A DNA stretch of 64,000 bases from an uncultured Planctomycetota bacterium (GTDB taxonomy: Bacteria; Planctomycetota; Planctomycetia; Isosphaerales; Isosphaeraceae). Shown here one piece after another: positions 32,115 through 47,191 of this stretch (positions are counted from its first letter, which is position 1; the number at the start of each line of letters is the position of its first letter). The translations under genes and the position numbers were made by a program. The notes beneath the pieces were generated by a model. It made no database searches. It worked only from the letters and a program-made list of their open reading frames with translations, and had not been told where the DNA came from. The stretch spans positions 1,760,001 through 1,824,000 of the forward strand of contig CAWGMQ010000004.1 of NCBI GenBank assembly GCA_963823665.1. Reading direction: 5' to 3'.

Positions 32115-33011
32115 TCACGCCCCGCGAGATCGTGTTGATTTTGTTCCCAAGAGCTTCACGCAAGCCTCGGCGATTTCTTCGGCACGGGCTTGGTCGGTGC
32201 GGTACAGCCGCTCGAACGATCGCAAGCAGTTCGTAAATGGGGCGTGGGGAGACGTGAGCGCTTCGATCGCCTTCCCGTGTTTCTCGCGTCGATGAACCGT
32301 CTTCGCTGTGGCGTGTCCCTCGAGCTCGAGGAACAACAACCGCACCAGTGCTGCACGCTCCTTGAACAGCGGCTTCCGACCCGAACTGTCGTCGAGGCGG
32401 AACAGTTCAATGGTGACCAGCGCACGGCGATGCTTGAAACCGCTCGCCGATCTCGGCACGGGGGACAACGCTTCGAACTCGATGAGCTCCTCAGGGTCCA
32501 CGTCAGTCACCCCGATCGGGTAGATCAGCAGCGATTTCTCGCCGTCCATCTGGGCCGGATCCGTCGCCGCCGTATCGCGCGTACCCTCGATGGGGAAGTA
32601 GTTCTTCTTCAAGGTCGAGTTGCAGGTCTTGCAGGACATCGCGTAGTTGAACGGCGAATAGGCCAACTGTGAATAGCCTGGCTCGGATGAGCCGTCGGCC
32701 GGCTGTTGAACCGTGACTCCTTCGGCCAAAAGCTGTGACGGAACGGTCCAGGGCTTCACTTCGGCTTTCGGGCGGAAGTGCTCGACGTCTTGCTCGATCT
32801 TTCCCTCGAGCGGCTTCTCGCAGAAGCAGCACTTCGAGTTCTGCATCTCGATATAAATGCCCTTGATCTTGCTCCAGAGCGGTTTGAAATCCGAGCTCTC
32901 CGGCGGGCTCGGAAGTCTGGCGATCACAGCAGCCGTGTTGGTAAACCATTTCTTATCCACCTCAGTGATTGCAGAGCGTAGCTCCGCTTCAGAAACAGCG
33001 TACCGAATCAC
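32115..33011 (-). CDS. HNH endonuclease (Septu PtuB-like)
   Basis: KCCFCE...VEHFRPK...LAY...NYAMSCKTCN...K.NYFP...LLIYP; start overlaps the ATPase stop. Confidence 0.82.
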   Translation of the reverse strand: MIRYAVSEAELRSAITEVDKKWFTNTAAVIARLPSPPESSDFKPLWSKIKGIYIEMQNSKCCFCEKPLEGKIEQDVEHFRPKAEVKPWTVPSQLLAEGVTVQQPADGSSEPGYSQLAYSPFNYAMSCKTCNSTLKKNYFPIEGTRDTAATDPAQMDGEKSLLIYPIGVTDVDPEELIEFEALSPVPRSASGFKHRRALVTIELFRLDDSSGRKPLFKERAALVRLLFLELEGHATAKTVHRREKHGKAIEALTSPHAPFTNCLRSFERLYRTDQARAEEIAEACVKLLGTKSTRSRGA

Positions 33012-34315
33012 TCCTCGACCTCCGTACCGCTACTCATCTCGCGGATCAACTGCAGAGGCGCGTTCTTGTCGCCCGATCGAATCCGCCCGGTGATGCTGTG
33101 GAGTTGGCGACGCTTCGCCTCGGCCATGGTGCTCTTCAAGCCGAAGAAGTCACTGAGCAGGATCTGATCGGCGTCCAGGCCGTGGATGCTCTGCTTCAGC
33201 CGTTTCACGACCGTCCGATTGGTTTTTGTCCCCACCTTCAGCGTGATGATGTTCATCCACTCGAGGCTCCCAGCCACGAGAGGACTATGGGAGGTGAAAA
33301 TAAACTGCATCCGCGGGAGCGCCTTCGCGACGGTTTTGATGACCTTCATTTGCCACTTTGGGTGAAGCAACAAATCGATCTCGTCAACCATGACCACGCC
33401 CGGCACGTCGACGAGAAATTGACCGGAATGACACGCAGTCGAGAGATGATACAGCAGGTCACCGACCCAACCGATGAATCCGCGGTAACCATCGGAAAGC
33501 GAGGGAAATGGCACCCTGGTTTCGCCCCGCCTGAACTCGTACTCACGACCCGTGATGTTTTCTGTAAGCTGGAAATGCCCTGGTCCGATCATGCGCTCCA
33601 TGAGTCCCAGAACTTCCCGATAGCGACCGGGGTTGCTCTTCTTTAGCCGGGGAAGCCAGTTAGTTAACCGATAGACCAAGAATCCATCTTGAAAGGCGCT
33701 GAGAACGCGTTGGGCACGCCCGAATGGATTCCTTTCGTGGAACGCCATCGCGGGAGAATCAACCGACTCGACTCGACGGTTCGAACCATAGGCCACGCAA
33801 AAGAACGCCGAATTGTGCGACTCGTAAACCGGCGCCCAGATCCGATCGTTATCGATCCCGGCGAACTCCATGGTGTCGATCTCGCCGAGCCGCTTGAATT
33901 CCTGCATCGATGCAAATGACTCTCCATCGTCGGCCGATAACCGTGCCTCTTTCCCAGCACGCTCCGACTCGTGCCGGAACAACGTGGCGAGAATGTAAGC
34001 GATGTTTCCGCCGACGTTCTTCATTGCGTGCTCGCCGTTCGACGAAAATCGCACCAGCCGTCGCAGCGGAAGCTGAGCGCCACCCGCGGCCGGCCCCAAC
34101 GCAGCGAGCGCAATCGCCTGCAGAACAGTGGTCTTTCCTGTGGCATTCTCGCCCAAGAGCAGATTGACGTTCGGCAGCCTGGGCTTCGGCAACAGCTTCC
34201 TGGCCTTGGGATCGCTTGCGCCTTGGGTGCGAAAAACCATATCAGGATGAACGAACTGCATCTCGGTGCGAGCGAAAGTCCGAATGTTCTCCATAACCAG
34301 TTTCTCGACGTACAT
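33008..34315 (-). CDS. ABC-type AAA ATPase (Septu PtuA-like)
   Basis: GENATGKTT, YGSNR, LSDGY signature, VDEIDLLLHPKWQ, FIFTSHSP. Confidence 0.85.
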   Translation of the reverse strand: MYVEKLVMENIRTFARTEMQFVHPDMVFRTQGASDPKARKLLPKPRLPNVNLLLGENATGKTTVLQAIALAALGPAAGGAQLPLRRLVRFSSNGEHAMKNVGGNIAYILATLFRHESERAGKEARLSADDGESFASMQEFKRLGEIDTMEFAGIDNDRIWAPVYESHNSAFFCVAYGSNRRVESVDSPAMAFHERNPFGRAQRVLSAFQDGFLVYRLTNWLPRLKKSNPGRYREVLGLMERMIGPGHFQLTENITGREYEFRRGETRVPFPSLSDGYRGFIGWVGDLLYHLSTACHSGQFLVDVPGVVMVDEIDLLLHPKWQMKVIKTVAKALPRMQFIFTSHSPLVAGSLEWMNIITLKVGTKTNRTVVKRLKQSIHGLDADQILLSDFFGLKSTMAEAKRRQLHSITGRIRSGDKNAPLQLIREMSSGTEVEE

Positions 34316-34607
34316 TCTTCAGTCTCCATTCCCCCGCTGCTTCTTCCTCGGCACGCTCCGCGAAACACACGCTTAGCCTTTGCCATCCACTCCTTCCATG
34401 GCGTCATCCCGGCCGCCCTTGCATTCGAAGATATCCGCTATTCTCACCTGGAATTGGACAGTTCGGAAGTCACATCCGCAACATTGCCCAGGCGCGCGTC
34501 CACCGCTTGGGCTCGCAGCTCGTACGCCGCCAGCCGAAAAGATCTCGTCCGCGGCGCCAGCACCTCACGGCGTCGAGCGTCTCTCGCCCTCGGACCCTTC
34601 CTGAGCA

Positions 34608-35321
34608 TCACGACGCCGGATTTGGAAAATCGAGTCCATTTAACTCTTCCAGCGCACGGTCGATGTCGGCGAACTTCGGGTCTGCCTCGAGAGCGAAAAG
34701 TTCCGCGCGGAGCAATGCAGCGCGGCGGCCGACCAACTGCTGGAACCACGAAACACCCAGCGTGCGCATCTTGTCGATGACGACAGAATCTCGGCCGCGT
34801 CGAGCCAGCACCAGCCCCAGAACAGCGTTGAGAGCGACAGCCCCATGCTGCGCGCGCGCCAGAAAGCGAGGCCGCGTGTAGTCGTCAATCAGCTCCTCCA
34901 GGCGGATCGCCAGCTCGCAGTACCGTTCACGTTGGGCGGGGAGGTTCGCGGTCAGCTTCCGCACCACCATCTTGGTGGTTTCGACCTCGAGTTCGATTGG
35001 TAGCGCGTGCCTCCCATCCACCCTCAAGAGGCTCGCGGCGCCTTCGAGGGCCTCGTCGGTGGGCGCAACAGCGACGTAATTCCGGATCGCAGATCCCACG
35101 GCGACGAGGCCGGCCGGGACATTCGACCCGCGGAACTCCTCGATGAACCGCCTGAGCAATGGAAGGAGCGCGGTGGCTTGCTCGACGTCAAAGGGCAGCG
35201 CCTCTGCTTCGATGATCAGCTTCCGTCGCTCCTCATGCCCCAGACCGAGGCGCTGAAGACACTCGAGGATTGACGTACTCGCTGATTCAGGGAACTCGAT
35301 CACGTCGTCGATGGGTGCCAT
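34608..35321 (-). CDS. Hypothetical helical protein
   Basis: 237-aa ORF, GGAAGGA RBS, co-oriented with the locus; no recognised motif. Confidence 0.7.
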   Translation of the reverse strand: MAPIDDVIEFPESASTSILECLQRLGLGHEERRKLIIEAEALPFDVEQATALLPLLRRFIEEFRGSNVPAGLVAVGSAIRNYVAVAPTDEALEGAASLLRVDGRHALPIELEVETTKMVVRKLTANLPAQRERYCELAIRLEELIDDYTRPRFLARAQHGAVALNAVLGLVLARRGRDSVVIDKMRTLGVSWFQQLVGRRAALLRAELFALEADPKFADIDRALEELNGLDFPNPAS

Positions 35322-35467
35322 GGGCGTTCCTTCCAGACCTTCCGCTGTCTCTCAACGCCGCGACAGTTTCTGAACACGTTAGACGCGTAACTGCTCGACC
35401 GGTTTTTCTCAGGCTACATTCGCAATGACTCGCAAATTGTCCGCTGGCACACCGTCAGGAAGCATGT

Positions 35468-36241
35468 TCAAGGTAAGTCTAATAGACCCATCAGGAATTC
35501 CTGCACCGCGCGAACGCGCGGCAGCGCCAGCGCCGTGCCGCGTAGCCACCGGTTGTCCTGAATGGAATTCTGCACGGCCCTCCCCGGCCGAAGTATGCTC
35601 GCCATCGAGACGACAATTGCCTTGTTCCGCCCGGCGGACTTCGCGAGCTCTTGAAGATCCTCAGGCAAGAGGCTCGGATCCCCGCTCACAGAATCGACGT
35701 GCGTCGTGGCGCTTGCGAGCAAACCCGCGTAAACATGCTGGGCGCAGTCGAGGAGAACGTCCTCGAGAGTTCCCGCGCTCGTGTTATCAGGCAGTACAAA
35801 TGCCCCAAGTCGCGGTGGACCGGCGCTCACATCGCCGGCACGATCGGGAAAGCCGTATCCTTTTGCTCGAAGGCCGTCACGTATCGGCGCATATCGGTCG
35901 CCTGGCGCCACAGACGAGTCTGAATCGAGAACGACGCCGATTGCCGTTAACTTCGCCGTGTCCACCAGCACCGCGTTCTCCTCGATGGTCAGAATCAGCC
36001 GCGTGTCACCGATCGCGCTGTGGACGGCCACCGAATGGGTCGCACTCTGCAAGAAAAGTGAGACCGGAACGCGCTTCTGAAGGTCGTCGTCCGGGGGAAA
36101 GGACCGAGGGACAAGTCGTCCGAAGTATGGGTCCAGGTCGGCCAAAAACCGTACCCGCTTCAGACCGTGCGGCCTCAGAAGCCCGTACACGAGCTCGACG
36201 TCCTGTGGCCCTTCAACAACCTGGTATCCGTATTTCGGCAT
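35468..36241 (-). CDS. DUF3226-like TOPRIM-fold protein
   Basis: VVEGPQD, IGVVLDSD, FVLPDN..GTLEDVLL, NKA motifs; starts 3 bp downstream of the ATPase. Confidence 0.75.
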   Translation of the reverse strand: MPKYGYQVVEGPQDVELVYGLLRPHGLKRVRFLADLDPYFGRLVPRSFPPDDDLQKRVPVSLFLQSATHSVAVHSAIGDTRLILTIEENAVLVDTAKLTAIGVVLDSDSSVAPGDRYAPIRDGLRAKGYGFPDRAGDVSAGPPRLGAFVLPDNTSAGTLEDVLLDCAQHVYAGLLASATTHVDSVSGDPSLLPEDLQELAKSAGRNKAIVVSMASILRPGRAVQNSIQDNRWLRGTALALPRVRAVQEFLMGLLDLP

Positions 36242-36244
36242 GGC

Positions 36245-37420
36245 TCACCGAACATCCAGCGCGCGCTCGCGGCGCAGCCGCGACAGTAAATCCGCGTCGA
36301 TCCGCTTCACCGTGGTTCGTTCATCGGTTTGATCCAGATGAAACGTGACTAGATCCGGAGCCGTGTCCTGAGTCGCCAGCGCGATGGCATCGACAGCTTC
36401 CAGGCTATGCGTCGTGGCGACAACCTGCACGTGCAGATCACGGGCGACTTTCGCGAGCCAACCCAGAACTCGGCTTAGCTTCGAAGCGTGAATGCCCGTC
36501 TCGATCTCGTCGATCAGGAGCACTCCCCCGTCCTGGAGCGCCGGAATCGTGCCGGCGAGCAAGACCGCCCTGCGCAGCGCGTCTCCAAAGATGGAGAGTG
36601 GTGCCTGGCCCAGGCGCTGGTGATCAAGGTAGATTGCGGGCCTCCCTCCCTGGAACGAAGCGAGGTTAATGTCGATGATTTGCGGATCGAACTCTCGGAC
36701 AAGATCGAGGACCCTGTTCTTTTTAGGGCCGAGCAGGTGGTGCGAGAACGACCGTGCTTGGATGCGGTTGATCTGGTACGAGTAGGGGGGTGAGGGTCTC
36801 GGTCGGCGCAGGCTGCGCTGTCGAGCAACGCGTCCCACCGGTTCGACATCGTCCTCCCAAACGCGAATCGAGACGGGTTGTGGTACCGACATGCCCGATC
36901 GCAGAAGGGAGCCGTCTGATTCCACGAAGTGCTTGATTAGGGCACCACGTCTGGGTCCGAGATCGAGATCAGGCCCATCGATGAGGGGACCGAGGCCCTG
37001 CTGCTCGACGAGGGAGTGCTCCTTTTCGAGCCGATCAAACGGACTCAGCTCGCGTGACCCTTCGATTTCCTCGCAGGTCACTCTGAGTTTCCTCAGAGGA
37101 AATCGTCCGTCGCACGTCATGCTGCACTCCCCCCCGAACATCGAGTCGGCATCGGGGGCCGGCACGCTCTGGCGGAAGCACCACCGTACAGATTGGACGC
37201 GAGTCTCATCCAGCCCGCCGAAGTCCCGCCGGCACACCATCCAGATCCACTCGCTGGGGTCGGCTGCGTTGCACAGTATGGACAGAGCTTCGAGAACGCT
37301 CGTCTTGCCGCAATTGTTTGGTCCGACGAGGATATTAATAAGACCGAGACGGTCAAGACGAAGATTCCTCAGTCCGCGGAAGCCGTCGACGGTCACGCTT
37401 TCCAGAGAATAACCAGGCAT
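36245..37420 (-). CDS. ABC-type (AAA_15/AAA_21-like) ATPase
   Basis: GFRGL, GPNNCGKTSVLEAL, FGDALRR, LLIDEIETGIH, QVVATTHSLE. Confidence 0.85.
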   Translation of the reverse strand: MPGYSLESVTVDGFRGLRNLRLDRLGLINILVGPNNCGKTSVLEALSILCNAADPSEWIWMVCRRDFGGLDETRVQSVRWCFRQSVPAPDADSMFGGECSMTCDGRFPLRKLRVTCEEIEGSRELSPFDRLEKEHSLVEQQGLGPLIDGPDLDLGPRRGALIKHFVESDGSLLRSGMSVPQPVSIRVWEDDVEPVGRVARQRSLRRPRPSPPYSYQINRIQARSFSHHLLGPKKNRVLDLVREFDPQIIDINLASFQGGRPAIYLDHQRLGQAPLSIFGDALRRAVLLAGTIPALQDGGVLLIDEIETGIHASKLSRVLGWLAKVARDLHVQVVATTHSLEAVDAIALATQDTAPDLVTFHLDQTDERTTVKRIDADLLSRLRRERALDVR

Positions 37421-37457: not shown

Positions 37458-41226
<3,769 letters not shown>

Positions 41227-41360
41227 TTTAGTTTGGCTGTCAGTTGTTTGAAGCGGAATTGGCCACAAATTGCGATGCACTAACACTCTACAGCCAATTC
41301 CAGAAGCCGGAAATGGACACAAATGGGACAAGAATCGGACAATAATTAGCCAATCGTCTC

Positions 41361-41995
41361 ATTCGTGGGATTCGTAAGATTCGTGGTTCCTCTTCTCTTC
41401 GCCGCGCCACACAAGCAGATTCGACCACGAATCGCACGAATTACACGAATCAGAAATTACTGGAAGGATGATCGCATTGCGCGCTCCAAGCGCCGATGAT
41501 CGCTTACACCTCGTCCTTGAGTGGGCTCTACACCGTTGCTCGCTTCTTCCTCCCCTTATTCGTGAGATTCGTCCGATTCGTGGTTCCTCTTCTCTTCGCC
41601 GCGCCACACAAGCAGATTCGACCACGAATCGCACGAATTACACGAATCAGAAATTACTGGAAGGATGATCGCATTGCGCGCTCCAAGCGCCGATGATCGC
41701 TTACACCTCGTCCTTGAGTGGGCTCTACACCGTTGCTCGCTTCTTCCTCCCCTTATTCGTGAGATTCGTCCGATTCGTGGTTCCTCTTCTCTTCGCCGCG
41801 CCACACAAGCAGATTCGACCACGAATCGCACGAATTACACGAATCAGAAATTACTGGAAGGATGATCGCATTGCGCGCTCCAAGCGCCGATGATCGCTTA
41901 CACCTCGTCCTTGAGTGGGCTCTACACCGTTGCTCGCTTCTTCCTCCCCTTATTCGTGAGATTCGTCCGATTCGTGGTTCCTCTTCTCTTCGCCG
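41361..41995. repeat. Tandem array with 197-bp period: three identical 161-bp IR-bounded units separated by 36-bp linkers
   Basis: Units ACCACGAAT...ATTCGTGGT at 41424-41584, 41621-41781 and 41818-41978; GATTCGTGGTTCC recurs at 41378, 41575, 41772 and 41969; orphan right end at 41361-41387. Confidence 0.95.
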
Positions 41996-42049
41996 TGGCG
42001 CGGACCAGCGCCGACCACGAATTAACCGATTCGGACGTCGCCAGAACGA

Positions 42050-42424
42050 TCATCGTACGATGCGATCGTATACAAGCTCACCATGTGCGCCGAAGTTCAC
42101 CAGCAGACCGAGACGATATCCGGTTGCTTTCAGGTAGTTATGAACCTGCGACCGGTGCTCGTCGGTCAACTCTGAGACAGCCTTGATCTCCACGATGACC
42201 TTATCGAAACACATAACGTCGGGTTCATATTTCTTCTTCAGCGTGCGGTCCTTGTACCTCAGCTTGAGCTCCGCCTGGGAGACGAACGGTATGCCCCGCA
42301 ATTCAAGCTCGATCTCGAGACATTCCTGATAGACGGGCTCGAGAAACCCACATCCCATGTGGTTGTACACCTCAAAGCACGCCCCGACGATCGCGTACGC
42401 CTCTTCTTTGAGCAGGATCTCCAT
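42050..42424 (-). CDS. GxxExxY protein (PD-(D/E)xK nuclease fold)
   Basis: GFLEPVY, PDVMCFDKVIVEIK, NYLKATG, GLLVNFG; purine-rich RBS-like stretch before ATG 42424. Confidence 0.93.
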   Translation of the reverse strand: MEILLKEEAYAIVGACFEVYNHMGCGFLEPVYQECLEIELELRGIPFVSQAELKLRYKDRTLKKKYEPDVMCFDKVIVEIKAVSELTDEHRSQVHNYLKATGYRLGLLVNFGAHGELVYDRIVR

Positions 42425-42535
42425 CGTTGCAGCCCTTTCTCTTCGCTCATTCGTGGTTCCGCTTACCCGCGCCGTGCCACACGAGCGCCAGCGCCCCGAT
42501 CGCAAACTCGGTCGTGTGAATATACCGGAGACTCG

Positions 42536-42767
42536 ACCACGAATCTCACGAATCTCACGAATCTCACGAATCAGAGATTATTGCAAAGATCATCGCATAT
42601 CGCGTTCGACGCGCCGATGCTCGCTTACGCCTCGTCGTTGGGCAGGATCTACAGCGTTGTTCTCGTCTTCGTTCCTTTATTCGTGAGATTCGTCAGATTC
42701 GTGGTCCAACTCCCCCTGGCCTTTCGCCGAACAGGCTCGACCACGAACTTCACGGATCTTACGAATC
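42536..42767. repeat. Diverged fourth IR-bounded unit (42536-42705) plus orphan left end (42740-42767)
   Basis: ACCACGAATCTCACGAATCTCACGAATCTCACGAATC ... ATTCGTGAGATTCGTCAGATTCGTGGT, with an interior homologous to the units of the 197-bp array. Confidence 0.9.
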
Positions 42768-42931: not shown

Positions 42932-45900
42932 TCACTCATCCCCGCTCCTTTCAGAGGAGCCACCCCCATTCGCCCGATGCTTGTTCCGCAGCCAGCTCTC
43001 AGGTATCCGCACGCGCTGCCCCGGGCTAAGCGTCGGCACCACTTTCCCATCCAGCAGTGCCTGATGATCGCCCGCAACAAGCACCCACAGCCCAGCAATC
43101 CCATCGCGCCGCCCAATCTTGTCCCGCAAACTCTCGAGCAGCCCCATCTGCCCATAACGCGCCAAGAGCCCCGCATAAATCATGAGCATCGGCTTCTTCA
43201 CCGCATGAAGTCGCGCCTCAACAATCGGCATCGCGCGCTTCACCAGCACCATCAACCGATCCCACTTCCCATCCCCAGGATTCGCATCCGCGCTCACGAC
43301 CGCATCCCACTTCGCCCCAGCCTTGTCAACAACTTGGCGCAGCGCATCGAGAAACAAAGCTTCAAAGTCAACCAATTCGACCGGAAACCGCCGCGCAAGC
43401 TCCTGATAAGCACACTGGTAGCACTTCGGATTCACCAGCAGGACGGTGAACGACCCCTCCTTGATCCCGTGCTTCAGCCGGTCCTCAAACTGCCGCGCAT
43501 CCGCAATCTCCGGAGTGACCTCGATCTGGGTATCCTCGCCAGTCGCCATTCCCGTCGACTCGCGCACCGCCGATGCACTCGCACTCGAATACGTAAACGA
43601 CTCGGTCAACCGGCTCTTGTAACCGCCAACACCCCGCAAGGCAGGGTCCCACTCAAAATCAAACCCAGCATCGCGCAGCAACACATCCAGCTCAGGCGGC
43701 CCCGGCAGCTCGGCCGCTTCCGGGTACCGACTCTTCACGCGCTCACGAATCTCCTGCACCGTGAGCGAAGCCACCCCATAAATCGCCCCCTGCGAGAGCT
43801 TGAGCGCCCGCGCCGCCTCCATTCCCCTGGGATAAAACTCATGCCTGCTCGAAAGCGCCGAATGACACGACGCCAGCGCCGCCAGCCGCACCAGCCGTGA
43901 GTCGGCAATCAGCGGCGAGCCGTCCGGCGCAGAAAGGTCGCGCAGTCGCTCAAGCGCGCGCTGCGGCGGCACCAGCGGGTCTTCCCCCGCCAGCTTGTCG
44001 CCAATTTCCCCCAGTCGCAGCGCAAAAGCCGCCAGCTCCGGACTGAGCGCCACCAGCACCCGGGCACCCTCTCGCCGCACGTGAAACCGCGGCTCGCGCA
44101 TCGACCGCTCAACTTCGACCGCCGCCCGAACAACAGCCCGGGCAAGCGCCGTTCGCCGCGGCTCATCCTCGACCGACCCCCGCGCAACCACCAGCGCCTC
44201 GGCCAGCTCCGGCACGAGCATCACGCCACCAGCCGACCCCATAATCCCGGAGACATCCGTGCGCAGCCGCGTGATCGCGGGCTCCTTGGCCCAGCGAGCT
44301 TGATAAGTGCCCACAACCTGGCTCAGACGTCCTCGACTGAACTTGCACAACTGCGCCACTTCAGCCTGGCTCGGCCACGGCTTTCCGGTCTCACCGCCCA
44401 GACACAGAAGCACGCTCATCACGCCGGCCGCTGGATCAGGCCCGTCCGTCCGTGCCTTGGGCAGCAAGCGCCCGGCCAGCAAGTCAATACTCAGGCTCGC
44501 CGTATCAGCCTCTTCTCCTGGCGCAGGTGCTTCATCCACCACCGGCGGTCCGCTCGACGCGGAACCAGCAGGCGAGCCAAGCCGTTCGCGCAGAATCCGG
44601 ACCGCGGTCACAATCTCGCGCCGCGTCTTGTTCCCCACGCCGCGCAGCCGCGCGAGCCGGCGAATCGGCACCGTGAGCAAATCTTCGACCGTCAGCAGGT
44701 TCGCACGATCGAGTGCGTTCGTCGCCCGCGTGCCCAGGCCCAGCTCGTGCACCTGGGTATCAAACGTCGCCCCCGCAAGCAGCGACCGCAACGTCTCCTC
44801 GTCGACGTGGTCCGAGAGCGTGCCGGGTTGTTCGATGTTCTCAAAACAGTGCCGCCACTCGGTGAGCATCTCCTCGGCGTTATCGAACCGCTGCGCGACA
44901 TTGCGCCGAAACGCCTTGCGAAAAAACCCGGTCAGCCGCTCGCGAAGACTCGCGTCAAACAGCTCGGCGTCAATGGTGATCTCACAAGTCATGTGGCTTG
45001 GGTCCGTAGTGCCATCGCCCCATCGCGGCAGGGTCCCTGTAGCGAGCTCGTGCAGCGTCGCGGCCGCGGCATAGCGCTCCGCATGAAGGTCCCAGCGCGG
45101 AGGCTTGCGCAAAGGGAGCAGGGGGTCGAGGTAGCCCGTGGTCCCCGCTCGAATGTTCTCGTTGGGCATCCGCGCCAGCGAGAAATCAAAGAGCATGAGA
45201 TGAAGCGTATCGCTCCGTCCGACCATTCCTACGGCAATGTTATCCGGCTTGATGTCGCGATGAGCGATACCCTGCTCCTGGAGGTAATTCAGAACATCGA
45301 GCAGGTCCACCCCGAACCGCTGGAGGTGGTCGATATGCAACCGTCCCTCCTTGCGCAGCCGCTGCCCCAGAGTCTCGACCCGTTTCTCATTCTTGTCGAC
45401 AAGGACCGGCCGCATCAGAAAGCCCGCGTGCTCGCCGATCGGAGCCTTGTCGCAGAATTCGACAATATGCTGATGCCGCAGTTTCTGGAGCACCTCGGCT
45501 TCATTCTGAATGCGATCGTTCTGCTCGGGGTCGTTCGCCGCCTTGAGCACATAATCCTGCCCACCGCGTTCGACGAGCAGCGCAATGGAGCAGGCACCAT
45601 GCCCCAACCGCCTGATCACCGTCAACCCGCCCGGGAGCAGATCGCCTTTCTGAGCTTGTTCAGGATCGACGACGTACTGATGTTCGGGTGCGGTCAGCTC
45701 GTCCTCGACGCCCTCGAGCAGCTCCAGAAAATCCGCGACCGAATCAATCCGGCTCGTGATCTCCGGATGCGTCGCAAACCGGACCAGGTCCTGAAGATTC
45801 TGACCGGCGCCGTTCATGACCGAGCTGATTTGCAATCCCTTGGTTTCACGAAGCTTGTTGGAAAGCTCAAGCCCGCTCGCCGCGGGCGGCTCGGCCGAGA

Positions 45901-47191
45901 ACACGTGATAGGCGATCGCACCCAGCGAGAAAACGTCGAGGTGCTCGCCCACGCTATTCTCGTCGGCGATGGCCTCCGGCGCCATGTACGCGGTCGTGGC
46001 ATCCTCGACCAGCCTGTCTACGTGCGATGTCGCCGCAATCGCGCCAGAGACCTTCGATGTCGACGTGCCTTCCCGATATCCCACCTGCCAGTTCAGGATC
46101 TTGATTTTTGGATGAGACGTCGACGGATCACGTACCAGAATGCTCTGGGGGCAGAGCCCTCGATGAACGACTTTTTTATCGTGTGCGAAACGGACGACTT
46201 CCGCGATCTGCCTCATCAGGTCGAGGCGTGCGCCGACGTTCAAGGAATCTCGCTGCTGAGATAAGAAGTGGTCAAGCCGAAGTGCCTGCGGATCATGCTC
46301 GAAGATGAGCGCAGGTCCCAGCTCGTGTTCGGAGAAACCATAAATTCGCAGGATCGCCGGATGCTGAAGTGATTCCAGCAACTGGAATTCTCGCAATGCC
46401 GCACGTTCGAGCTTGCCCCGGTCCTCCTTGCTTGACTCGGTTCGCACGTGGTACACCCGCACGCGGCGTTTGATGTCCTCCAGTCGCACGTGGGTCGCGA
46501 GCCAGTCCTGGTAGCCCGGTCCCTCGCCGAGAATTCGTTCGAGAAGATAGTCGCTGACTTTTCGATGGCGCTGGCATGGGCGGATCCCCGCTTGATCCAT
46601 CGCCTGGCTGACCATCTTGGCCGTCGGCTGGTTGTGCGTCCCTTTCAGATACCGCTCGAGCCCCGGGCATTCCCGGTTCTTGATCGCTGCGAGGATGCCG
46701 GGGCGACGCTCAACATCGCCGGCCCGTTCCCGATCGCGCAGGCAAACCCGGTAAGCCGCCGTGCCCTTGAGGTCGAGCTGCAACCCAGGCGCCGAGCAAA
46801 AGACCAGATGCTCGATGAACGGAACGGTTCCCTTGTTCTTGCAAGCTCGCTGGCGCTGAAGCAGCGCACGCAGCTTCTTCGCCTTCGCGTTGGCGGCGAG
46901 CACGGGATTGTCCGAGGTGATCAACCGGCCCTCGGTCTCCCACGACCAGGTCCCCGCGTCGCCAAAGAGCCGCCCCGGCCTGCTCTTGATCTCAACGAGA
47001 AAGAACCCTTCCGGCGTGAATGCCAGAAAGTCAACCTCATTGACACTTCCGTCATCGGCGATGAACTCGAAGTTGCTCCAAGCCTGGTAGGGTTCATGAG
47101 CCGGGAAGCCCGCCCGGACAAACTCGAGCGCTTCTCGTTCCCACGGAAACCCAGACTCCGCGACCTTGATCCAGTTCTGCCCGGCTGCCAT
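42932..47191 (-). CDS. pglW: BREX-2 PglW (NERD nuclease-like + two kinase domains + RNAP alpha-CTD-like domain)
   Basis: AWSNFEF...EVD...LVEIKS (NERD); degenerate VHRGLCPQSI kinase; HRDIKPDN/DFSLA kinase; LGTRATNALDR...RGVGNKTRREI. Confidence 0.93.
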   Translation of the reverse strand: MAAGQNWIKVAESGFPWEREALEFVRAGFPAHEPYQAWSNFEFIADDGSVNEVDFLAFTPEGFFLVEIKSRPGRLFGDAGTWSWETEGRLITSDNPVLAANAKAKKLRALLQRQRACKNKGTVPFIEHLVFCSAPGLQLDLKGTAAYRVCLRDRERAGDVERRPGILAAIKNRECPGLERYLKGTHNQPTAKMVSQAMDQAGIRPCQRHRKVSDYLLERILGEGPGYQDWLATHVRLEDIKRRVRVYHVRTESSKEDRGKLERAALREFQLLESLQHPAILRIYGFSEHELGPALIFEHDPQALRLDHFLSQQRDSLNVGARLDLMRQIAEVVRFAHDKKVVHRGLCPQSILVRDPSTSHPKIKILNWQVGYREGTSTSKVSGAIAATSHVDRLVEDATTAYMAPEAIADENSVGEHLDVFSLGAIAYHVFSAEPPAASGLELSNKLRETKGLQISSVMNGAGQNLQDLVRFATHPEITSRIDSVADFLELLEGVEDELTAPEHQYVVDPEQAQKGDLLPGGLTVIRRLGHGACSIALLVERGGQDYVLKAANDPEQNDRIQNEAEVLQKLRHQHIVEFCDKAPIGEHAGFLMRPVLVDKNEKRVETLGQRLRKEGRLHIDHLQRFGVDLLDVLNYLQEQGIAHRDIKPDNIAVGMVGRSDTLHLMLFDFSLARMPNENIRAGTTGYLDPLLPLRKPPRWDLHAERYAAAATLHELATGTLPRWGDGTTDPSHMTCEITIDAELFDASLRERLTGFFRKAFRRNVAQRFDNAEEMLTEWRHCFENIEQPGTLSDHVDEETLRSLLAGATFDTQVHELGLGTRATNALDRANLLTVEDLLTVPIRRLARLRGVGNKTRREIVTAVRILRERLGSPAGSASSGPPVVDEAPAPGEEADTASLSIDLLAGRLLPKARTDGPDPAAGVMSVLLCLGGETGKPWPSQAEVAQLCKFSRGRLSQVVGTYQARWAKEPAITRLRTDVSGIMGSAGGVMLVPELAEALVVARGSVEDEPRRTALARAVVRAAVEVERSMREPRFHVRREGARVLVALSPELAAFALRLGEIGDKLAGEDPLVPPQRALERLRDLSAPDGSPLIADSRLVRLAALASCHSALSSRHEFYPRGMEAARALKLSQGAIYGVASLTVQEIRERVKSRYPEAAELPGPPELDVLLRDAGFDFEWDPALRGVGGYKSRLTESFTYSSASASAVRESTGMATGEDTQIEVTPEIADARQFEDRLKHGIKEGSFTVLLVNPKCYQCAYQELARRFPVELVDFEALFLDALRQVVDKAGAKWDAVVSADANPGDGKWDRLMVLVKRAMPIVEARLHAVKKPMLMIYAGLLARYGQMGLLESLRDKIGRRDGIAGLWVLVAGDHQALLDGKVVPTLSPGQRVRIPESWLRNKHRANGGGSSERSGDE

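What the first reader, a model, noticed from the sequence alone, without database searches (positions are those of the whole stretch)
41361..42767. GxxExxY nuclease cassette embedded in an array of its own deletion derivatives: candidate undescribed autonomous/non-autonomous mobile system
Seen: the GxxExxY gene is bounded by ACCACGAAT (42014) and ATTCGTGGT (42449-42457). The same termini bound four gene-less units (41424-41584, 41621-41781, 41818-41978, 42536-42705). Each unit's interior matches the 5' end of the gene (38/49 nt by manual alignment; relic GTG TAG AGC CCA CTC AAG GAC GAG GTG TAA GCG ATC ATC GGC GCT vs gene ATG GAG ATC CTG CTC AAA GAA GAG GCG TAC GCG ATC GTC GGG GCG). This is joined to a weaker match to the gene's 3' end (16-17/24; the 42.6-kb copy keeps ...CGA TGA). 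Established: GxxExxY proteins have a PD-(D/E)xK nuclease fold and no function known to me. Inference: this resembles a transposase plus MITE, or RAYT plus REPIN, arrangement, with a small PD-(D/E)xK nuclease as candidate mobiliser or processing enzyme.
Basis: partly seen in the sequence, partly recalled or inferred. Interest (0 to 1): 0.88.

Follow-up and report, generated by a model that had tools for sequence, protein, structure and literature searches.

The report
Nuclease gene amid its miniature copies
A small nuclease gene of unknown function sits among shortened, dead copies of itself, all bracketed by the same short mirror-image repeats, and relatives show that these repeats travel with this gene family and mark places where DNA is flipped, cut out or duplicated, which points to a kind of selfish DNA not found in the papers searched.

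Summary
The 124-aa GxxExxY gene (42050-42424, minus strand) lies among four gene-less units. Each is the gene cassette minus one 310-bp internal deletion (5' match beats 2000 of 2000 shuffles; arm-anchored 3' match P about 0.001). The array splits the pglW-pglX junction of a BREX-2 locus. The same relic-gene-relic array stands at two unrelated sites in a same-genus genome, and arms are dispersed in this genome (42 matches, 1 control). Arms flank 140 of 158 GxxExxY loci, and the repeat word follows the protein clade. Relics with other junctions arose independently in other lineages. The transposase-plus-MITE reading fits only partly: no target duplication, arm orientation around the gene varies, the gene is nearly absent from plasmids and phages, and in one genus it stays single-copy at one locus while arms scatter. 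Near-identical genomes differ by an inversion and an excision that cross over in arms. Best reading: a REPIN/RAYT-like repeat system served by a Cas4/RecB-type nuclease; enzyme action is inferred, not shown. My literature searches found no description. This scan noted GxxExxY-with-repeats before on other DNA (17 findings).

The parts
41308..41356 (.). Tail beyond the last arm, shared with the end of the array at L061; probably part of the transferred unit
41357..41387 (.). Outer arm (three 9-nt-period words)
41378..41995 (.). Exact tandem of period 197 (relic unit plus 36-nt spacer), 3.1 copies: recent local amplification
41424..41584 (-). Relic U1: left arm, leader, first ~47 nt of gene (start codon lost, stops), last ~18 nt of gene, trailer, right arm
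41621..41781 (-). Relic U2, identical to U1
41818..41978 (-). Relic U3, identical to U1
42014..42457 (-). Gene-bearing cassette; both gene-proximal arms are decayed to about one clean word
42050..42424 (-). GxxExxY gene, 124 aa, PD-(D/E)xK fold; D69, E79, K81 invariant and Q93/Y97 nearly invariant in 55 homologues
42458..42535 (.). Long (80-nt) spacer between arms, homologous at L061 and L005
42536..42705 (-). Relic U4, same deletion junction, interior 77% identical to U1, keeps the gene's stop codon
42740..42767 (.). Outer arm at the pglW side
42932..47191 (-). Host context: BREX-2 kinase PglW, upstream of the array
   Evidence: NF033442, 1615 bits
37458..41226 (-). Host context: BREX-2 methyltransferase PglX, downstream of the array, read in three frames
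   Evidence: NF033451 on three ORFs

Best explanation
A repeat-plus-nuclease system that works like REPIN-RAYT but uses a different enzyme. SHOWN: GxxExxY genes sit in arrays of alternating arms, each arm two or three words C-R-C-R-R-A-n spaced 9 nt apart. The word travels with the protein clade. Gene-less arm pairs and internally deleted cassettes are dispersed or amplified in tandem. Crossovers inside arms invert, remove or duplicate the DNA between them. The window array is one gene slot plus four copies of a single old deletion derivative, three of them a recent tandem triplication, and the whole array has come to lie at three unrelated sites in two genomes of this genus. INFERRED: the protein, a minimal Cas4/RecB-type nuclease, binds the triple words and nicks or cuts at the arm ends; host repair joins the strands; this makes arms recombinogenic, seeds arms at new intergenic sites without target duplication and now and then moves the gene-bearing array. 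The relic interiors are neutral passengers kept because they carry arms.
For: Arms within 250 nt at 140 of 158 loci; with long flanks 112 of 128 near versus 10 of 128 at 1 kb. Word changes on the protein tree 24 versus shuffled mean 53, minimum 44 of 1000; divergent set 19 versus 29.8, minimum 23. The GAA word dominates the close clade across seven named phyla, and single genomes hold genes with different words. Triple word in 7 of 8 genomes with a close-clade gene versus 6 of 33 without. Genus g36: gene in 11 of 22 genomes, one copy, one locus; arms in 22 of 22. G456 versus G460 (96.5% flanks): 859-bp array absent, ends within 2-5 nt of the outer arms, no duplication. G132 versus G037: interior between arms inverted, and a 3.1-kb block between direct arms reduced to one arm. 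Partner arms co-vary, flanks inverted rather than direct. Catalytic residues invariant, gene under purifying selection.
Against: No biochemical or RNA evidence. A PD-(D/E)xK fold cuts but is not known to join strands (own knowledge). Tree clustering shows linkage, not recognition. Arms persist in 11 g36 genomes where the gene was not found and in G022, G040. 4 of 10 breakpoints between G132 and G037 touch no arm, and the regions were chosen for holding arms. Host recombination between inverted repeats can invert elements (PMC3004938, listing only). Unlike RAYTs the gene has entered the pglW-pglX junction repeatedly and stands at three sites in genus g1. One clade in this genome (L024, L027) has a different word that my C-R-C-R-R-A detector misses.
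Confidence: 0.55

Rival explanations
1. Autonomous terminal-inverted-repeat transposon plus MITEs: arm-gene-arm is the transposon, the 161-bp units are its non-autonomous derivatives and jump on their own.
For: Units are clean internal deletions with both ends kept; one solo relic elsewhere in this genome (C3:907206-907376); independent junctions in L094, L131, L024, L173; inward-facing arms are the commonest layout, 32 of 80; GxxExxY of 32-65% identity at 5 of 23 other pglW-pglX junctions, 8 of 23 abutting; G456/G460 indel bounded by inward-facing arms.
Against: 3-nt direct repeats outside the arms in 1 of 52 gene cassettes versus inverted matches in 20 of 52; 16 of 80 loci outward-facing, 15 of 80 direct; no DDE, HUH or recombinase fold; 8 plasmids, 0 phages; spacers between units are homologous, so they are part of the unit and not target DNA; only 1 full relic outside the window in this genome.
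Confidence: 0.2
2. Passive repeats: the arms are binding, RNA-folding or processing sites of a host-useful nuclease gene (for instance a defence accessory), and all rearrangement is ordinary slippage and homologous recombination between repeats.
For: Repeated presence inside BREX-2 operons, always co-oriented (6 of 6); arm pairs fold strongly (z -5 to -6); the G344 gene is a mosaic (5' half near-identical to G460, 3' half divergent), as homologous recombination would give.
Against: Does not explain tens of dispersed gene-less arms per genome in a clade-specific word; no strand bias in mispairs (G.T 57, A.C 50); no convincing defence-library match (best E 0.009); most loci lie outside BREX.
Confidence: 0.15
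3. The arms are mobilised in trans by another enzyme (RAYT or an IS transposase) and GxxExxY is a frequent passenger.
For: Arms persist where the gene is missing; REP-like palindromes and other repeat families are nested in or next to arms.
Against: Tight clade-word link and arms within 250 nt of 140 of 158 genes; no other gene recurs in the arm slots among the 15 arm loci read by eye.
Confidence: 0.1

Closest known systems
REPIN-RAYT systems, REPtrons and TIRtrons (10.1101/2021.07.10.451892 and PMC3733652, passages read)
   Same: Low-copy nuclease gene flanked by cognate inverted repeats; dispersed gene-less inverted pairs with variable spacer; repeat-specific enzyme clades; fixed locus within a genus; near absence from plasmids.
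   Different: Enzyme is PD-(D/E)xK, not HUH-Y1; arms are non-palindromic 9-nt-period triple words, not short GTAG/CGTC-tagged palindromes; gene moves between phyla and sites; relics of the gene itself are amplified.
Insertion sequences with terminal inverted repeats and their MITEs (definition from PMC3733652 passages)
   Same: Gene-less internal-deletion derivatives that keep both ends; 160-bp size.
   Different: No target duplication, no DDE transposase, unfixed arm orientation, tandem arrays with conserved spacers.
Integron gene cassettes and attC sites (recalled)
   Same: Promoterless, co-oriented gene between imperfect inverted repeats; blocks gained or lost at repeat sites.
   Different: No tyrosine integrase; no strand bias of mispairs; slots next to the gene hold its own relics.
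Cas4/RecB-family nucleases (SSO0001, 4ic1)
   Same: Fold: Foldseek E 2.8e-4, TM 0.61; catalytic D-E-x-K and QxxxY positions.

Membership tests
GxxExxY / PDDEXK_3 protein family | Profile score above curated cut-off | tested here: met
   PF13366 143 bits vs 22; TIGR04256 140.8 vs 35
PD-(D/E)xK nuclease superfamily | Fold and catalytic D...E-x-K | tested here: met
   Model pLDDT 96.9; top fold matches are restriction-like nucleases; D69, E79, K81 invariant in 55 rows
PD-(D/E)xK nuclease superfamily | Nuclease activity | not testable with these tools
   Needs purified protein
REPIN-RAYT | HUH-Y1 transposase next to the repeats | tested here: not met
   Only PF13366 hits the gene; fold is PD-(D/E)xK
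REPIN-RAYT | Each arm a short palindrome, GTAG- or CGTC-tagged | tested here: not met
   Arms are direct 9-nt-period words
REPIN-RAYT | Dispersed extragenic inverted pairs with variable spacer | tested here: met
   83 gene-less pairs near genes
REPIN-RAYT | Single-copy, vertically kept enzyme gene, absent from plasmids | tested here: inconclusive
   Met in genus g36 and nearly on plasmids; not in genus g1 (three sites) or at pglW-pglX
IS with TIRs plus MITE | Target-site duplication | tested here: not met
   1 of 52 at 3 nt; none at a near-isogenic indel
IS with TIRs plus MITE | DDE or other known transposase | tested here: not met
   gene is PF13366 only
IS with TIRs plus MITE | Fixed inward-facing terminal repeats around the gene | tested here: inconclusive
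   32 of 80 inward, 16 outward, 15 direct, 17 one-sided or none; decayed proximal arms bias the count down
IS with TIRs plus MITE | Gene-less derivative keeps both ends of the full element | tested here: met
   one 310-bp deletion; four further independent junctions
Integron cassette array | Tyrosine integrase and strand-specific attC hairpin | tested here: inconclusive
   No strand bias of mispairs; genome not searched for IntI
Structured RNA family / type III antitoxin array | Match to a curated RNA family | tested here: inconclusive
   No Rfam match near a gathering score; interiors diverge like neutral DNA

The most novel reading that the evidence does not exclude
GxxExxY is a 124-aa sequence-specific nuclease that drives a widespread, undescribed class of selfish repeats: it cuts at its own triple-word arms and, with host repair, inverts, excises, amplifies and moves whatever lies between arms, including itself, its deletion relics and unrelated host genes (integron-like shuffling without an integrase).
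Probability: 0.4. Interest if true: 0.9.

Novelty: categorically new. Interest (0 to 1): 0.74.

Why it matters
PF13366 is listed as function unknown with many transfers (PMC3424549, table row). Here it gains a candidate substrate whose sequence can be read from its own flanks, clade by clade, so a cross-specificity assay is straightforward. If true, it is a third enzyme chemistry behind dispersed bacterial repeats besides HUH and DDE, and a source of operon-level rearrangement in Planctomycetota and other phyla, including inside BREX defence loci. Within this scan the gene-repeat link is not new; what this locus adds is the relic anatomy, array-level transfer and arm-centred crossovers.

Tried and rejected
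Assembly artefact: unlikely, with the caveat that the run may be the source sample. Free 3' alignment: not significant; replaced by the anchored test. Clean empty sites in genus g1: not found; the flanks of L061 lie 9.5 kb apart in this genome and the L005 site holds other cargo in G001. Genus of G015: no second genome held. Homodimer prediction: no answer, no evidence either way. No solved structure by sequence. No RNA holder listed. Strand-specific hairpin selection: none seen. The careful tree did not finish; a quick LG+G4 tree on 124 columns was used, with 71 of 153 forks open; 9 loci with stops in the gene were left out. In the relic screen L104 was dropped as a mis-called gene end. The whole own genome could not be scanned by script, so own-genome counts rest. 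Absence of a family from the fold lists is not exclusion.

Full report
1. What is there. The gene runs 42424 to 42050 on the minus strand, 124 aa, PF13366 and TIGR04256. It lies co-oriented between pglW (ends 42932) and pglX (starts 41226) of a BREX-2 locus. Read along the gene, the 1.46-kb insert is: right arm, spacer, relic U4, long spacer, gene cassette, spacer, then U3, U2, U1 each with a spacer, a last left arm and a 50-nt tail. An arm is two or three CACGAAT words at a 9-nt period. U1-U3 are identical, period 197. GC is 54% against 62% for the window. The closest protein hits are mostly Planctomycetota records.

2. The units are deletion derivatives. The 5' match (35/46, 37/45) beats all 2000 shuffles; the free 3' match does not (P 0.13-0.18), but the arm-anchored one does (15-16/30, P about 0.001). 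Global alignment gives one 310-bp deletion that joins gene base ~47 to the last ~18 bases. Seven copies from two genomes have the same 103-nt interior and are 64-91% identical, while three gene copies are 94% identical with 13-14 synonymous against 5-7 non-synonymous codon differences. So the relic arose once, long ago, and drifts about neutrally; copies with small indels exist at L170 and L176.

3. Dispersal and transfer. In this genome the triple word has 42 matches (up to 2 mismatches) against 1 for the control; 12 lie in the window, 30 on 7 contigs. One is a full relic that keeps the ATG (C3:907206-907376); others are solo arm-spacer-arm doublets or single arms with leader remnants. A same-genus genome holds the relic-gene-relic array at two unrelated sites (L060, L061; 91% to each other, 82-86% to the window), without the BREX flanks, plus gene-less relic arrays and a second, longer deletion class (L170, L173). 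No clean empty site was found for these.

4. Across genomes. Among the 80 best loci of 492 confirmed, arms lie within 200 nt at 55 of 57 loci with long flanks versus 2 of 57 control windows. Adding divergent clades, 140 of 158 loci have arms of the general form C-R-C-R-R-A. The word follows the protein tree (24 changes; shuffles 44 or more), spans phyla within a clade and differs between genes of one genome. Kin share labels, so this shows that arms travel with the gene, not that the protein reads them. Gene fragments beside the gene occur at 11 of 80 loci after dropping L104, two of the 11 being L060 and L061. Clean two-ended deletions with other junctions are at L094 (291 bp), L131 (318 bp) and, in another clade of this genome, L024. 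Relic formation is therefore recurrent.

5. Empty site. Of 27 other pglW loci, 23 show pglX downstream: 8 abut within -3 to +4 nt, 5 carry a GxxExxY gene (32-65% identical to ours, different words, all co-oriented), 4 carry gene-less arms, 6 carry other inserts. The junction was entered several times; it is also a general insertion hot spot.

6. Against a plain transposon. Arm orientation next to the gene is inward in 32, outward in 16, direct in 15 and one-sided or absent in 17 of 80. Bases outside partner arms match as inverted, not direct, repeats (3 nt: 20 versus 1 of 52), and variable positions co-vary between partners (0.94 versus 0.50 at word position 7). The protein is on 8 of 72,556 plasmids and 0 of 50,697 phages. 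In genus g36 the gene is in 11 of 22 genomes, one copy, always before the same downstream gene, while arms number 4-67 in all 22. That locus is filled, reduced to one arm pair, or empty; G456 lacks exactly the 859-bp array of G460, without duplication; the direction of that change is unknown. This is the REPIN-RAYT pattern as described in 10.1101/2021.07.10.451892.

7. Arms as crossover sites. Between G132 and G037 (92-96% identical in these regions) a 320-bp interior is inverted with crossovers in the arms, and a 3.1-kb gene block between direct arms is reduced to one arm. Of 10 breakpoint events in four compared regions, 6 touch or lie within about 70 nt of an arm and 4 do not; the regions were picked for arms, so this is no enrichment test. 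Such crossovers would explain the mixed orientations and the triplication in the window.

9. Literature. Searches: GxxExxY (3 papers, 2 listed), PF13366, TIGR04256, PDDEXK_3, and term sets. None of the listings describes these repeats. Seen: passages of 10.1101/2021.01.26.428298 (one incidental mention), PMC3424549 (table row 'Unknown'), PMC3733652, 10.1101/2021.07.10.451892; listing and abstract start only for 10.1101/119735, PMC3004938, PMC12085832, PMC9756366. Subscription papers and supplements were not searched. This scan has 17 earlier notes on GxxExxY with inverted repeats and notes on deleted copies and gene-less hairpins; my REPIN-like reading was stated before seeing them, and they are not independent support.

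10. Verdict. Real feature; real deletion derivatives; robust gene-repeat system that fails the defining tests of REPIN-RAYT and IS-MITE while working most like the former. The enzyme's role is inferred. Interest 0.74.

Noticed in passing
window 37458-41226 (-): pglX is read in three frames (NF033451 hits on three ORFs); pseudogene or long-read indel errors.
   Followed up: no
window 32115-37420 (-): Two AAA_21 ATPase genes, one with a DUF3226 neighbour, lie between pglX and pglY in the BREX-2 locus.
   Followed up: no
L023 (G000:C3:560871-561500): Second close-clade GxxExxY gene, frameshifted, with CACGAAA arms and a gene-less arm pair downstream.
   Followed up: partly
L024, L027, L029 (G000:C5, C10): A divergent GxxExxY clade with a different arm word (GAACAGGAG type) and its own deletion derivative; several near-identical copies in this genome.
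   Followed up: partly
L323, after pglW: A small ORF that looks like a four-helix-bundle (IVS-type) protein (label recalled, no call) sits in the same junction between arrays of a different short word.
   Followed up: no
L338, L343, L344: The left arm lies inside the pglW reading frame and encodes its C-terminus (TTKDTKHTK); L343 keeps the arm but lacks the gene.
   Followed up: partly
L170/L171 (G001:C4): A 3-kb block with relic tandem (period 200) and a second tandem (period 152) bounded by arms occurs twice at 98.8% identity.
   Followed up: no
L007, L009, L010, L015, L016, L017: A larger dispersed repeat in this genome carries one left arm plus the relic leader at its end.
   Followed up: no
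L051 (G000:C8:1407600-1408500): Tandem array of ~216-bp units that each carry CACGAAT arms and CGCAGA-type words together.
   Followed up: no
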